From Gammaproteobacteria bacterium (GTDB taxonomy: Bacteria; Pseudomonadota; Gammaproteobacteria; Arenicellales; Poriferihabitantaceae), in contig JAHRAW010000047.1 in NCBI GenBank assembly GCA_020027415.1, positions 1-26,494 of the forward strand: a DNA stretch of 26,494 nt, in the 5' to 3' direction. Positions 19,300 to 22,667 of this stretch are shown here, in pieces (positions within the stretch are counted from its first letter, which is position 1; each line of letters starts with the position of its first letter). The notes below the pieces were generated by a model. That model saw only the letters and a list, made by a program, of their open reading frames with translations. It ran no database searches and was not told the DNA's origin. The translations under genes and the position numbers were made by a program.

Positions 19300-20262
19300 G
19301 TGCCCACCTTAATCACCGGCTCGTTCGCTTATGACACCATCATGGTGTTTCGCGACCAGTTCAAAAATCATATCCTGCCCGACCGCATGCATATGCTTAA
19401 TGTATGTTTTCAGGTGCCGGAGTTGCGGCGGGAGTTCGGCGGCTGCGCCGGCAATATCGCATACAACCTGAAACTGCTCGGCGGCGAACCGCTGCCGATG
19501 GGCACGGTGGGCAAGGATTTTGCGCCGTATCGCAAGTGGCTTTGCCGACACCATATTGAGGTTACGCATATTTCCGAAATTGCGGACACCTACACCGCGC
19601 AAGCATTCTTGACCACCGATATTGATAACAATCAAATTGTCGCCTTTCATCCCGGCGCCATGCAACACGCCCGGCAACAGCAAGTGACCGATGTGACCGC
19701 CGGCGCTGATATTCGCCTTGGCATCGTCGCGCCGAATGATAAAAACGCCATGCTGCAGTATGTAACCCAATTCCACGCGGCGGATATTCCGTTTATTTTT
19801 GACCCCGGGCAAGGGCTGCCGATGTTCACCGGCGACGAGTTGGCGCGGTGTATTGAGCGGGCCACCTATATCGTCGTCAACCACTATGAAGCCGAACTGC
19901 TGCAACAGAAAATCGGCAAAAACTTAGCGCAAATCGCCGCGCGCGTGGCGGCGTTGGTGGTCACGCGCGGCGGCGAGGGCGCGGATTTTTACCACGATGG
20001 ACATGTCATGCGCATCCAGGCGGCGCATGTTAAAGCCGCCAAAGACCCGACCGGTTGCGGCGACGCTTTTCGCGCCGGCTTGTTATATGGTCTCGCCAAG
20101 CAACTGGACTGGCAAACCAGCGGGCAAATCGCCTCGCTGTTGGGCGCCATCAAAATAGAACACCCCGGCACGCAGAATCATCGCCTTAGCAAAGCGCAGT
20201 TTGAAAAGCGGTATAAAGAAAATTTTGGCGCCACTCTACGCCTTAACTCTTTAACTCCCTGA
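19300..20262 (+). CDS. PfkB-family carbohydrate/nucleoside kinase (adenosine-kinase-like)
   Basis: Motifs GSFAYDTIM, EFGGCAGNIAY, FDPGQG, VTRGGEG and the PfkB signature DPTGCGDAFRAG. Confidence 0.9.
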   Translation: MPTLITGSFAYDTIMVFRDQFKNHILPDRMHMLNVCFQVPELRREFGGCAGNIAYNLKLLGGEPLPMGTVGKDFAPYRKWLCRHHIEVTHISEIADTYTAQAFLTTDIDNNQIVAFHPGAMQHARQQQVTDVTAGADIRLGIVAPNDKNAMLQYVTQFHAADIPFIFDPGQGLPMFTGDELARCIERATYIVVNHYEAELLQQKIGKNLAQIAARVAALVVTRGGEGADFYHDGHVMRIQAAHVKAAKDPTGCGDAFRAGLLYGLAKQLDWQTSGQIASLLGAIKIEHPGTQNHRLSKAQFEKRYKENFGATLRLNSLTP

Positions 20263-20286
20263 CTCATACACCGCTTGGTTAAACCC

Positions 20287-21507
20287 ATGAAACCAAATAT
20301 TAAAAGCCGTACTGTTTTTCTCGGTGACAACATAGATTTCCTGCGCGGCATCAATTCGGCATGCGTGGATTTAATTTACGCCGACCCGCCGTTTAATAAA
20401 AAGAAACAATTTACCGCGCCGATTGGCTCGGAGGCCGAAGGCGCGAGTTTTTCGGATTACTTCGGCGCAGAGGATATTAAGGATGAATGGGTGGAGGAAT
20501 TGCGGCAGGAGAACCACGAATTGCATTCGCTGTTGATCGGCGTCAACGCCATGGGCAATTCGTATAACTACTGCTATCTGGTTTATATGGCAATCCGCTT
20601 AATTGAATGCCACCGAGTTTTGAAATCCACCGGCAGTTTTTATTTGCACTGCGACCCGACCATGTCGCATTACCTAAAATTATTGCTGGACTGCATATTC
20701 GGCGGCAAGCAATTTCAAAATGAATTTATCTGGTATTACGGCGGCGGCGGCGCCGGCAAAAACCGCTGGGGGTGGAAACATGATGTGTTGCTGTTTTTCA
20801 CCAAAAGCGCGAACTGGACTTTTAACATGGACGCGGTGCGCGTGCCGCATAAATGGAGTCAAGGGCAGTTGCGCGCCGACGGGTCACAGCGGTCGCTGGA
20901 GAAGGGGAAAATTGCCGATGATGTGTTTGTTCGTCATGGCGTAATGCCATGGAGCAAAGAGCGCACCGGCTACCCCACGCAAAAACCGCTGGCGTTGCTG
21001 GAGCGCATCATTTCCGCCTCGTCCAACCCCGGCGATTTTGTGCTGGATCCGTTTTGCGGCTGCGTCACCACCTGCATCGCCGCCGAACGTTTGGAGCGCA
21101 ACTGGGTCGGCATTGATGTCGCCAGAGAAGCGTGGAAGCAAATTGAACAACGCTTGGAAAAAGATGTGCCATCTGATTTACTGCGCGGCGAAGCCAATTT
21201 TTCCCGCACCCCGCCGCAACGCGGCAAACAAGATGCGCGTGCGAAAAAATATGTATATGTGATCAGCAATCCGGCGTACCCAGGCATCTACAAAGTCGGC
21301 GTGGCGACCAACGCCGAAGCGCGATTAGCCAGTTATCAAACCGCCGACCCAAAGCGACGCTATCAATTGGAATTTAAGATTTTGACGGCGGAATATAAAA
21401 CCTTGGAGCCGCATATTCACCGCAAGTTTGACGGCGACCACGAATGGGTGCCGGGCAAGTTGGCGGATATTATTGCAGCAATGAAAACCTACCAAGCGCC
21501 GGCGTGA
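20287..21507 (+). CDS. Beta-class N6-adenine/N4-cytosine DNA methyltransferase fused to a C-terminal T5orf172/GIY-YIG-like domain
   Basis: Catalytic motif IV IYADPPFN precedes YPTQKP and motif I VLDPFCGC (beta order). The last ~90 aa contain YVYVISNPAYPGIYKVG..RLASYQTADP..LEPHIH..HEW. Start at ATG 20287 (TTG 20275 alternative). Confidence 0.88.
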   Translation: MKPNIKSRTVFLGDNIDFLRGINSACVDLIYADPPFNKKKQFTAPIGSEAEGASFSDYFGAEDIKDEWVEELRQENHELHSLLIGVNAMGNSYNYCYLVYMAIRLIECHRVLKSTGSFYLHCDPTMSHYLKLLLDCIFGGKQFQNEFIWYYGGGGAGKNRWGWKHDVLLFFTKSANWTFNMDAVRVPHKWSQGQLRADGSQRSLEKGKIADDVFVRHGVMPWSKERTGYPTQKPLALLERIISASSNPGDFVLDPFCGCVTTCIAAERLERNWVGIDVAREAWKQIEQRLEKDVPSDLLRGEANFSRTPPQRGKQDARAKKYVYVISNPAYPGIYKVGVATNAEARLASYQTADPKRRYQLEFKILTAEYKTLEPHIHRKFDGDHEWVPGKLADIIAAMKTYQAPA

Positions 21508-21520
21508 TGAGGCAGGCGAG

Positions 21521-21580
21521 ATCCCACCGGGGAGATGGGGATGTTCGCAGTATCTCCGCCCGTTTCACCCACTTCTCCGG
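21521..21580. other. Imperfect inverted repeats between the convergent methyltransferase gene and the tRNA (possible terminator region)
   Basis: CCGGGGAGATGGG pairs imperfectly with CCCACTTCTCCGG. An inner GGAGAT/ATCTCC pair and ATCCCA/TGGGGAT offer alternative pairings. Confidence 0.35.
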
Positions 21581-21607
21581 ATGTGTCGGCTGGTAGTGGC
21601 ATAGAGA

Positions 21608-22646
<1,039 letters not shown>

Positions 22647-22667
22647 GGTTTTCTCCGCATGCAACAT

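What the first reader, a model, noticed from the sequence alone, without database searches (positions are those of the whole stretch)
20287..21507. Solitary DNA methyltransferase fused to a T5orf172/GIY-YIG-like domain beside the tRNA-Thr 3' end
Seen: a beta-order amino-methyltransferase (DPPF .. FCGC) carries a ~90-aa C-terminal domain with YVY-x-KVG-x-R-x-Q-x-E-x-EW spacing. There is no separate restriction, specificity or integrase gene nearby. It ends 100 nt from the tRNA 3' end. Three 60-nt lines counted by hand (starting 20281, 20581, 21361) are 35-42% GC, against 57% for a line in the upstream kinase gene; another methyltransferase line (21001) is 60%. Known: classical single-chain Type IIC/IIG enzymes have an N-terminal PD-(D/E)xK nuclease and a gamma-class methyltransferase. 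T5orf172 belongs to the GIY-YIG superfamily and is common in phages. tRNA-Thr(CGT) is a known integration hotspot. Inference: this is a horizontally acquired one-gene restriction-modification, nicking or anti-phage module with non-canonical architecture, and the best candidate for a poorly described defence system in this window.
Basis: partly seen in the sequence, partly recalled or inferred. Interest (0 to 1): 0.7.

Follow-up and report, generated by a model that had tools for sequence, protein, structure and literature searches.

The report
Single-gene DNA methylase–nuclease fusion
A gene inserted between a sugar kinase gene and a threonine tRNA encodes a DNA adenine-type methylase joined to a small, apparently active DNA-cutting domain. 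It belongs to a very large, unstudied family that looks like a one-protein restriction-modification enzyme and is present in dozens of copies per genome in this bacterial genus.

Summary
ORF 20287-21507 (+, 406 aa) is a beta-class N6/N4 DNA methyltransferase (PF01555, 1e-46) fused to a C-terminal T5orf172 domain (PF10544, above cut-off). It ends 100 nt from the 3' end of tRNA-Thr(CGU), among housekeeping genes only.

It is a one-gene insertion. Four species of the same genus have the kinase stop followed within about 15-90 nt by the tRNA. There is no integrase, no att repeat and no conserved non-coding end.

The C-domain models as a GIY-YIG fold. All motif residues are invariant in 62 homologues, including E374, which aligns with the catalytic E180 of phage ICP1 Odn. 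dN/dS against a paralogue in this genome is 0.11-0.20.

In paralogues sampled from this genus, HNH or Mrr-type nuclease domains recur on the same methylase scaffold. The central target-recognition segment is swapped between copies. Relatives lie mostly in sponge-type symbiont MAGs of many phyla, often in tandem arrays, and six of 25 loci ride beside an IS1595 transposase.

Best reading (about 0.5): a self-contained single-chain restriction-modification enzyme of non-canonical build. Activity is untested.

This scan has already found the same family several times on other genomes, so this copy is a further member, not a first sighting.

The parts
20287..21507 (+). CDS of the methyltransferase-T5orf172 fusion (406 aa plus stop), protein P0001
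   Evidence: Open frame. Pfam PF01555 plus PF10544. 62 full-length homologues at 51-69% identity. AF2 model with pLDDT 84.9 and pTM 0.80.
20383..20394 (+). Motif IV, DPPF (residues 33-36), catalytic loop of the amino-methyltransferase
   Evidence: D33, P34, P35 and F36 are invariant in 62 homologues. D-P-P-[FY] is typical of N6-adenine enzymes (established knowledge, so adenine specificity is an inference).
20740..20958 (+). Hypervariable middle segment (residues about 152-224), the presumed target-recognition domain
   Evidence: Length 61-143 aa in homologues. Sequences with the closest frames (77-82% identity) have unalignable middles (12-25%). Ten sequences with the same 73-aa middle (55-67%) have more distant frames. 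Nucleotide similarity to paralogues skips gene positions about 455-668.
21046..21063 (+). Motif I, DPFCGC (residues 254-259), SAM-binding loop
   Evidence: D254, P255, F256, G258 and C259 are invariant. This part aligns to M.MboIIA, M.RsrI and CcrM.
21169..21240 (+). Linker (residues about 295-318) between the methylase and the nuclease domain
   Evidence: No Pfam match. Lower pLDDT (73-87) and almost no regular secondary structure in the model.
21241..21486 (+). T5orf172 (GIY-YIG superfamily) domain, residues 319-400, minimal catalytic core
   Evidence: PF10544. Topology beta-beta-alpha-beta-alpha-beta-alpha. The best structural matches are Slx1, HIGLE, EF2693, I-TevI and UvrC. Y324, K336, G338, R346, E374, H378, E386 and W387 are invariant. 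E374 aligns with Odn E180.
20263..20286 (.). 24-nt spacer after the PfkB kinase stop; left limit of the inserted segment
   Evidence: No promoter-like or terminator-like site between kinase and methylase on the + strand. No similarity to the flanks of paralogues.
21508..21607 (.). 100-nt spacer before the tRNA 3' end; right limit of the inserted segment
   Evidence: No similarity to other loci apart from the tRNA itself. No unusual RNA fold (z = +1.33).
21608..21683 (-). tRNA-Thr(CGU), intact, not duplicated
   Evidence: ARAGORN. The same tRNA directly follows the kinase gene in G001, G003, G006 and G008.
19300..20262 (+). PfkB-family kinase gene, the conserved left neighbour used as synteny anchor
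   Evidence: Pfam PF00294. Orthologues at 55-71% identity in 13 relatives.

Best explanation
The gene encodes a self-contained, single-chain restriction-modification-type enzyme. An N-terminal beta-class (probably N6-adenine) methyltransferase reads a short DNA motif through its exchangeable middle segment and methylates the host's own sites. A minimal GIY-YIG-type (T5orf172) nuclease core is tethered by a linker of about 25 residues and has no recognition elements of its own. The methylase module brings it to unmethylated copies of the same motif on incoming DNA, where it nicks or cuts nearby, as in I-TevI or Type IIS/IIG enzymes. The protein probably acts as a homodimer through the methylase domain, which would supply two nuclease cores for a double-strand cut. 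The gene entered this lineage horizontally as a one-gene unit and is probably co-transcribed with fur and the kinase gene. Shown here: the domain architecture, the conservation of catalytic residues, purifying selection, the insertion, and the family-wide exchange of recognition and nuclease modules. Inferred: methylation, cleavage, coupling of the two activities, defence, and co-transcription.
For: (1) Both domains pass the curated Pfam cut-offs. The methylase motifs are invariant.
(2) The C-domain models as a GIY-YIG fold. The six best of 48,161 chains are all GIY-YIG proteins, mostly known nucleases: Slx1 Z 7.0 (rmsd 3.8, 88 aligned), HIGLE Z 6.8, a second Slx1 entry Z 6.2, EF2693 4.8, I-TevI 4.3, UvrC 4.1.
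(3) All motif residues are invariant in 62 homologues and at least 90% conserved in 111 cluster representatives. E374 aligns with E180 of ICP1 Odn. The E180A change abolishes cleavage by Odn in vitro and in vivo (PMC8263062).
(4) dN/dS against the paralogue on contig C27 is 0.20, and 0.11 in the nuclease part.
(5) The nuclease position is filled by different folds. Of 21 other paralogues with the same methylase frame (17 loci of G001 giving 18 genes, plus 3 of this genome), 10 match HNH and 5 match Mrr_cat families. The matches were not mapped to a position, but each protein has a 65-175-aa tail behind the methylase. Non-homologous nuclease domains recurring on one scaffold argue that cutting is the selected function.
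(6) The recognition segment is exchanged independently of the frame, as expected if one module directs both activities.
(7) There is no recurrent partner gene. 94 flanking ORFs of 25 loci fall into 130 Pfam families, mostly housekeeping.
(8) Homodimer model: score 0.78, best of 3 controls 0.00. That mark was reached by 20 of 30 proteins solved as pairs of one chain and by 1 of 23 solved as single chains. The runs share at least 85% of contacts and the partner's pLDDT is at least 79. The interface lies in the methylase domain (residues 77-91, 124-170, 209-213).
(9) Precedents exist. An engineered Eco29kI GIY-YIG REase-MTase fusion works as a Type IIC enzyme (PMC3039593). BtgZI has an N-terminal MTase and a C-terminal nuclease (PMC4081073). 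Iyer and Aravind list T5orf172 among nuclease domains of N6A R-M systems (PMC4738411).
Against: No member has been assayed, as far as 10 full-text searches and the PDB, phage and plasmid collections show. A host carrying 14-51 tblastn matches per 2-3 Mb genome would bear a heavy self-cleavage risk if all copies were active restriction enzymes. The structural Z-scores are middling (7 or less), and Foldseek gave no match at E <= 0.001. The profile alignment to Odn has low probability (4%, E 0.0097), so it rests on motif agreement. The homodimer pass may reflect memory of solved beta-class methylase dimers. T5orf172 domains can be domesticated as DNA binders (the title and abstract of the PLE satellite preprint; I did not read it). 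Insertion between housekeeping genes with tiny spacers is also the habit of free-standing homing endonuclease genes.
Confidence: 0.5

Rival explanations
1. Selfish, homing-type mobile gene. The nuclease mainly serves the gene's own spread: it cuts unmethylated, gene-less alleles so that repair copies the gene in. The methylase only shields the carrier genome. Defence would be a by-product. This overlaps with the best explanation, since R-M systems can behave as selfish elements, but it puts the selected function elsewhere.
For: One-gene insertion in a spacer of about 15-90 nt between conserved genes, without repeats, integrase or transposase. Similarity to paralogues starts and stops at the ORF ends. 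A paralogue pair in G007 begins at an overlap with the prs stop, ahead of pth. HNH and GIY-YIG are the nuclease types of free-standing phage homing genes, and T5orf172 genes are the commonest putative homing genes of ICP1 phages (bioRxiv 10.1101/2023.03.23.533998). The nearest phage relatives of the C-domain (45-47% identity) are small ORFs beside tRNA genes in phages with genomes of about 110 kb. Copy number per genome is high.
Against: A 73-aa recognition segment of a beta-class methylase should read a short motif with very many genomic sites, not one long homing site. Recognition segments are diversified, which a homing gene tied to one site does not need. In contigs of runs from three studies only the occupied allele was bridged. 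Six of 25 related loci sit next to an IS1595 transposase, a different means of movement.
Confidence: 0.2
2. Orphan (regulatory or epigenetic) methyltransferase whose T5orf172 domain no longer cuts. The domain would act as an extra DNA-binding or dimerising module, as the C-terminal domain of CcrM does, or as the domesticated T5orf172 repressor of the PLE satellite does.
For: There is no separate restriction gene. CcrM, a beta-class orphan, is a sequence relative of the methylase part. Versions of the same scaffold without a nuclease exist (tails of 7-40 aa in L081, L086, L117, L118, L089). A domesticated T5orf172 regulator is on record (abstract).
Against: Y324, R346, E374, H378 and E386 are invariant, and dN/dS is 0.11 in the domain. 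HNH and Mrr_cat nuclease domains recur on the same scaffold, which a mere binding role would not predict. The predicted dimer interface lies in the methylase domain, not in the C-domain.
Confidence: 0.15
3. Remnant passenger of an IS1595-type transposon or of a tRNA-targeting island that has lost its mobility genes. The gene would be a hitch-hiker with no current role for the host.
For: An IS1595 DDE transposase lies directly upstream on the same strand in L053, L058, L061, L066 and L072, and downstream in L074. The kinase/tRNA-Thr slot is variable in the genus: ABC transporter plus GDSL lipase in G002, and an Eco57I-type methylase plus IS605 TnpB in G005.
Against: The window has no transposase, no terminal inverted repeats and no target duplication. 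The ORF is intact and under purifying selection. The same junctions are present in runs from three studies.
Confidence: 0.08

Closest known systems
Type IIC/IIG single-chain restriction-modification enzymes (MmeI, Eco57I, BpuSI; the exception BtgZI)
   Same: Methylase and nuclease sit in one polypeptide. One recognition module presumably serves both. They can stand alone without a second methylase (MmeI). BtgZI also has the order methylase then C-terminal nuclease (PMC4081073).
   Different: The classical enzymes have an N-terminal PD-(D/E)XK nuclease and a gamma-class methylase and are about 900-1000 aa. BtgZI has an alpha-class methylase and a PD-(D/E)XK variant. Here a beta-class methylase carries a C-terminal T5orf172/GIY-YIG core in only 406 aa. 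Activity is untested.
GIY-YIG restriction endonucleases Eco29kI, Cfr42I, Hpy188I, and the engineered RM.Eco29kI fusion
   Same: The same nuclease superfamily is used for restriction. The artificial Eco29kI R-M fusion shows that a GIY-YIG nuclease joined to a methylase can both cut and protect (PMC3039593).
   Different: Those nucleases are separate proteins with their own recognition elements, paired with a separate methylase gene. The domain here is a bare core of about 85 aa of the T5orf172 subfamily, and the fusion is natural.
T5orf172 nucleases of phages (ICP1 Odn/Gp88 and putative ICP1 homing endonucleases; small ORFs near tRNA genes of phages with ~110-kb genomes)
   Same: Same Pfam family and the same motif set (Y-x-Y, K-V-G, R, E-x-x-x-H, [DE]-W). 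The catalytic Glu of Odn (E180) aligns with E374. The build is modular, with a DNA-targeting domain plus a T5orf172 core. The C-domain is 45-47% identical to the small phage ORFs.
   Different: The phage proteins use RepA_N-like or other DNA-binding domains, not a methyltransferase. No phage record out of 50,697 holds the full fusion.
Beta-class amino-methyltransferases M.MboIIA, M.RsrI, CcrM
   Same: Sequence homology over the catalytic and SAM-binding parts (E 1e-17 to 1e-21). A dimer through the methylase domain is predicted.
   Different: These enzymes carry no nuclease domain. CcrM's C-terminal domain is a non-catalytic DNA binder. NCBIfam scores for the CcrM and PRK11524 equivalogs are far below their cut-offs.

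Membership tests
N6_N4_Mtase (Pfam PF01555), beta-class amino-methyltransferases | Profile match above the curated cut-off | tested here: met
   160.1 bits against a cut-off of 26.7, residues 27-287 covering profile positions 1-220 of 221.
N6_N4_Mtase (Pfam PF01555), beta-class amino-methyltransferases | Circular order: motif IV (D/S-P-P-Y/F), then recognition segment, then motif I | tested here: met
   DPPF at 33-36, variable segment about 152-224, DPFCGC at 254-259.
N6_N4_Mtase (Pfam PF01555), beta-class amino-methyltransferases | SAM-dependent methylation of a defined DNA motif | not testable with these tools
   Needs expression and SMRT or nanopore read-out.
T5orf172 (PF10544), GIY-YIG superfamily | Profile match above the curated cut-off | tested here: met
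   34.9 bits against a cut-off of 20, residues 322-388. phrog_5032 at E 2.8e-21.
T5orf172 (PF10544), GIY-YIG superfamily | GIY-YIG fold (beta-beta-alpha-beta-alpha core) | tested here: met
   Model with pLDDT 85.4 and strands and helices in that order. The top six of 48,161 chains are GIY-YIG proteins, Z 7.0 to 4.1. Foldseek alone gave only weak rows (E 0.25 or more).
T5orf172 (PF10544), GIY-YIG superfamily | Catalytic Tyr, Arg and Glu retained | tested here: met
   Y324, R346 and E374 are invariant in 62 sequences. E374 aligns with Odn E180, and R346 with Odn R148 by my count along the printed alignment. The profile probability is low, so this rests on motif agreement.
T5orf172 (PF10544), GIY-YIG superfamily | Metal-dependent DNA cleavage | not testable with these tools
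   Biochemical assay needed.
Classical Type IIC/IIG R-M enzymes (MmeI/Eco57I type) | Methylase and nuclease domains in one chain | tested here: met
Classical Type IIC/IIG R-M enzymes (MmeI/Eco57I type) | [quoted passage not shown] | tested here: not met
   The methylase is N-terminal and of beta order with DPPF. The nuclease is C-terminal and of the GIY-YIG type. So this protein may work like a Type IIC enzyme but is not a member of that lineage.
Classical Type IIC/IIG R-M enzymes (MmeI/Eco57I type) | Cleavage of unmodified sites and protection by its own methylation | not testable with these tools
   Needs in vivo and in vitro assays.
Integrase-borne genomic island at a tRNA gene | Integrase gene and direct repeat of the tRNA 3' end (att) | tested here: not met
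   No integrase among the neighbours. No repeat longer than 13 nt at the borders, and the tRNA 3' end is not duplicated.
Free-standing homing endonuclease gene | Nuclease gene inserted between conserved genes, present or absent among relatives, without terminal repeats | tested here: met
   Empty site in G001, G003, G006 and G008. No repeats.
Free-standing homing endonuclease gene | Long, rare target site at the empty allele and nuclease-driven gene conversion | not testable with these tools
   The target is unknown. The congeners are too distant (kinase 64-71% identical) to align the spacers.
IS1595-family element with passenger gene | DDE_Tnp_IS1595 transposase adjacent, with terminal inverted repeats | tested here: not met
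   Absent in the window. Present beside the fusion in 6 of 25 related loci.

The most novel reading that the evidence does not exclude
The gene is one unit of a combinatorial mini-restriction repertoire. A single small methylase scaffold is combined with three unrelated nuclease cores (T5orf172, HNH, Mrr-type) and with freely exchanged recognition cassettes. It is held in dozens of copies and tandem arrays per genome and is shared horizontally among symbiont bacteria of more than ten phyla. If the copies are active, this would be an undescribed, highly evolvable class of one-protein R-M enzymes of about 400 aa, and a natural source of compact programmable cutters.
Probability: 0.35. Interest if true: 0.8.

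Novelty: new variant of a known kind. Interest (0 to 1): 0.55.

Why it matters
If the fusion cuts and methylates through one recognition module, it is the smallest kind of complete restriction-modification unit: about 400 aa in one gene, with no partner.

Its build (beta-class methylase followed by a GIY-YIG core) is missing from the current Type II subtyping and from PADLOC models.

Three family-level features could explain how these bacteria cope with heavy phage and foreign-DNA exposure:
- dozens of copies per 2-3 Mb genome;
- cassette exchange of the recognition segment;
- interchangeable nuclease folds.

These bacteria are mostly sponge-type symbionts. The organism of this window was also recovered in seep, sediment and biofilm samples.

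The paralogues also have a practical cost, because they fragment short-read assemblies.

The enzymes could yield many new specificities for biotechnology. For this window alone the news is modest: it is one more intact member, with a clean empty-site comparison.

Tried and rejected
- att or terminal repeats around 20263-21607: none longer than 13 nt and none at the borders.
- Conserved non-coding ends shared with paralogues: none. Similarity ends at the ORF.
- Structured RNA in the 100-nt tail: z = +1.33, so none.
- Own promoter or terminator: none found by the consensus scan.
- PDB sequence search with the C-domain profile: only chance rows at E above 1.
- Foldseek against the PDB: no match at E <= 0.001. 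The GIY-YIG rows were weak.
- Full-length fusion in cultured phages and plasmids: not found. There were 0 phage records at 80% cover or more, and the 4 plasmid records at that cover are 26% identical methylases.
- Empty-site allele in the population: no contig joined 20262 to 21608 in four runs. Contigs cannot prove absence.
- Expression: an RNA-labelled library holds the gene at a depth like its neighbours, but the data are contigs and DNA carry-over is possible, so transcription is not shown.
- Habitat from the small shares in two sponge metagenomes: the one run laid (X7) gave mostly the tRNA plus a few short low-depth pieces in the kinase and methylase genes, so this is not evidence of habitat.
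- PADLOC: no system-specific model, only generic MTase_II, MTase_III and oMTase models.
- NCBIfam: no equivalog reached its cut-off.
- Literature: 10 full-text searches found no description of a beta-class MTase-T5orf172 or MTase-HNH family. Subscription journals and REBASE itself were not searchable.
- ispH/tRNA overlap in relatives: an apparent tblastn read-through was checked and rejected, because the relatives have stops before the tRNA.
Full report
**Observation**

The ORF at 20287-21507 (+) is intact and encodes 406 aa. Pfam places an N6_N4_Mtase domain at residues 27-287 (E 1e-46). It places a T5orf172 domain at 322-388 (34.9 bits, cut-off 20), with a weaker match to the related MUG113 family.

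The motif order is DPPF (33-36), a variable middle, then DPFCGC (254-259). That is the beta order. The methylase part is homologous to M.MboIIA, M.RsrI and CcrM.

ARAGORN finds tRNA-Thr(CGU) at 21608-21683 on the minus strand, so exactly 100 nt lie between the stop codon and the tRNA 3' end. The whole gene is 51.8% GC against 57.6% for the genome, and the low part is mainly the first 450 nt.

All neighbours are housekeeping genes: UbiH-type monooxygenase, Fur, PfkB kinase, IspH, LspA, RibF and MurJ.

**It is an insertion, but not an integrase-type tRNA island**

In four species of the same genus (G001, G003, G006, G008) the kinase stop is followed within about 15-90 nt by the 3' end of the same tRNA, and where the fetched stretch reaches that far (G001, G003, G008) ispH comes next. 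The window therefore carries a one-gene insertion of at most 1345 nt (20263-21607).

The slot varies in the genus. G002 has an ABC transporter and a GDSL lipase there, with the tRNA and ispH beyond them. In G005 an Eco57I-type methylase and an IS605 TnpB follow the kinase, and in G004 unrelated genes do, with no tRNA or ispH in the 13-14 kb fetched.

There is no duplicated tRNA end, no flanking direct or inverted repeat, and no integrase or transposase. Similarity to paralogues begins and ends at the ORF. No promoter-like or terminator-like site separates the gene from the kinase gene, so co-transcription is likely, though this is an inference.

Contigs from runs of three different studies bridge one or both junctions, and I saw no empty-site joint. 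The runs are a biofilm RNA-labelled library, a cold seep and a sediment. The insertion therefore appears fixed in this organism, as far as contigs can tell.

**The C-terminal domain looks like a working nuclease core**

AlphaFold models of the whole protein (pLDDT 84.9, pTM 0.80) and of the C-domain alone (pLDDT 85.4) give a beta-beta-alpha-beta-alpha-beta-alpha fold.

An exhaustive structural comparison puts GIY-YIG proteins in the first six places of 48,161 chains: Slx1 (Z 7.0 and 6.2), HIGLE (6.8), EF2693 (4.8), I-TevI (4.3) and UvrC (4.1). The Z values are middling, and Foldseek alone was weak. The agreement of the top rows with the Pfam clan assignment is what carries weight.

In 62 full-length homologues Y324, K336, G338, R346, P355, R357, T367, E374, H378, E386 and W387 never change.

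I fetched Odn (Gp88) of phage ICP1, the T5orf172 nuclease whose E180A mutant is dead in vitro and in vivo (PMC8263062). In the profile alignment Odn E180 falls on E374 and Odn H184 on H378, and by my count Odn R148 falls on R346. The probability of that alignment is low, so it rests on the motifs.

Against a second copy in the same genome (contig C27, 91% nucleotide identity) dN/dS is 0.20, and 0.11 within the nuclease part.

**The family**

The word-index search returned 7991 significant proteins. The 120 best all carry PF01555 plus PF10544, are about 400-480 aa long, and are 48-77% identical to this protein.

An exhaustive search with the C-domain alone found 791 clusters. Of the 111 closest, 107 are T5orf172 and 45 also carry the methylase.

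In one-genome-per-species contigs, 595 relatives were confirmed. Their hosts are almost all uncultured bacteria whose record names point to sponge microbiomes, spread over many phyla: Poribacteria, Poriferihabitans, Arenicellales, Dehalococcoidia, Spirochaetia, Alphaproteobacteria, Flammeovirgaceae, Nitrospirales, Acidobacteriota and others.

None of 50,697 phage records and none of 72,556 plasmid records holds the full fusion.

**Copy number and modularity**

Every one of the 11 same-genus genomes gave 7-51 tblastn matches to this protein in 2.1-3.1 Mb (matches are not copy numbers).

This genome has four T5orf172 fusions: C145 complete, and C27, C135 and C208 cut by contig ends. It has about twenty further ORFs or fragments with the methylase frame, most of them at contig ends. 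The paralogues evidently break the assembly.

I took 21 other paralogues with the same methylase frame (18 genes from 17 loci of G001, plus 3 from this genome). None has T5orf172. Ten match HNH families and five match Mrr_cat. Each has a tail of 65-175 aa behind the methylase frame, which is presumably where those matches lie.

Three unrelated nuclease folds on one scaffold is the strongest argument that cutting is the selected function.

The middle segment behaves as a cassette:
- Sequences with the closest frames (77-82% identity) have unalignable middles (12-25%).
- Ten sequences sharing this protein's 73-aa middle (55-67%) have more distant frames.
- At the nucleotide level the paralogue matches skip positions about 455-668.

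Tandem arrays are common. There are at least six genes with the methylase frame in a row in L060 (five with T5orf172, the sixth cut by the end of the fetched stretch), three in L052 and L055, and five of the non-T5orf172 type in L097. There are also pairs in G011 and G007.

**Context**

Ninety-four ORFs flanking 25 T5orf172 loci fall into 130 Pfam families, mostly housekeeping. No restriction, specificity or helicase partner recurs.

The only repeated neighbour is an IS1595 DDE transposase. It lies directly upstream on the same strand in five loci and downstream in a sixth. Part of the family's mobility is therefore by transposon piggy-back, but not at this locus.

**Mechanism proposed**

The nuclease core of about 85 aa has no recognition elements, so specificity must come from the methylase and its exchangeable segment. 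The linker of about 25 residues suggests cutting at a short distance from the motif, as in I-TevI or Type IIS/IIG enzymes (inference).

A homodimer is supported by the complex model:
- The score is 0.78, and the best of 3 controls is 0.00.
- That mark was reached by 20 of 30 proteins solved as pairs of one chain and by 1 of 23 solved as single chains.
- The runs agree in at least 85% of contacts, and the partner's pLDDT is at least 79.
- The interface lies in the methylase domain.

This may be memory of solved beta-class methylase dimers. A dimer would bring two nuclease cores to one site.

Two precedents make the logic plausible. The engineered Eco29kI R-M fusion works as a Type IIC enzyme (PMC3039593). 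BtgZI has its methylase first and its nuclease last (PMC4081073).

The selfish-homing reading remains a serious rival and is not exclusive. A non-catalytic binding role is less likely given the invariant active-site residues.

**Comparison with known systems, and novelty**

The protein works like a Type IIC enzyme. It fails the defining build of that lineage, which is an N-terminal PD-(D/E)XK nuclease plus a gamma-class methylase.

It is a member of PF01555 and of PF10544. PADLOC knows only its methylase half.

The Aravind group lists T5orf172 among R-M nuclease domains (PMC4738411). Methylases of COG0863 are known to be specific to sponge cyanobionts (PMC4453008). I found no description or assay of this fusion family.

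This scan has met the family repeatedly on other genomes, and those follow-ups reached the same reading. My own evidence for it came before I read those notes.

I rate it a new variant of a known kind, of moderate interest. For this window the added value is the clean empty-site comparison, the residue-level link to Odn, the dN/dS figure, and the predicted dimer.

Noticed in passing
window 21608-21683 / 21639-22667: The ispH frame runs 45 nt into tRNA-Thr before its stop. In G008, G003, G001 and G002 ispH stops 35-120 nt before the tRNA, so the overlap is peculiar to this genome among those checked.
   Followed up: partly
G000 contigs C27, C135, C208, C50, C175, C131, C53, C126, C24, C169, C75, C32, C68, C121: Most methylase-frame ORFs of this MAG lie at contig ends. 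The conserved parts of the paralogues act as repeats that break the short-read assembly, which may help explain why this genome is only 1.56 Mb in 244 contigs against 2.1-3.1 Mb for its relatives.
   Followed up: partly
L031-L047 (G001), A3: One complete 2.7-Mb genome of the genus carries at least 18 full-length genes with the same methylase frame. In the set of 21 that also holds three paralogues of this genome, ten match HNH and five match Mrr_cat families; none has T5orf172.
   Followed up: partly
L060:1247-9271; L097:1094-8176; L052; L055; L105; L121: Tandem arrays of three to six or more methylase-nuclease fusion genes with spacers of 3-180 nt and different middle segments. They look like substrates for cassette exchange.
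   Followed up: partly
L053:3132-3980, L058:3481-3975, L061:2959-3909, L066:3040-3984, L072:2315-3268, L074:6135-7109: An IS1595-family DDE transposase sits directly beside the methylase-T5orf172 gene in six of 25 loci from Arenicellales, Poriferihabitans, Pseudomonadales and OMG-group MAGs. The element ends were not mapped.
   Followed up: partly
L024:1374-5332 (G002); L023:1366-4147 (G005): The same kinase/tRNA-Thr slot holds other cargo in congeners: an FtsX/ABC transporter pair plus a GDSL lipase in G002, and an Eco57I-type methylase plus an IS605 TnpB in G005. The spacer is a genus-wide variable spot.
   Followed up: partly
L026:4829-6939 (G011): A C5-cytosine methylase and an NgoFVII-type (PLD plus B3-like) restriction endonuclease lie immediately upstream of a tandem pair of T5orf172 fusions, forming a small defence cluster.
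   Followed up: no
phage records H31-H60 (genomes of about 107-128 kb, hosts Salmonella, Escherichia, Vibrio): Small ORFs, often unannotated or overlapping annotated tRNA genes, are 45-47% identical to the C-domain of this protein. They may be the free-standing relatives from which the nuclease core derives.
   Followed up: no
window 19700-22100 in runs X1-X5: The organism, with this insertion, is recovered from samples labelled biofilm, cold seep and sediment in three studies, whereas most relatives of the gene come from sponge-named MAGs.
   Followed up: partly
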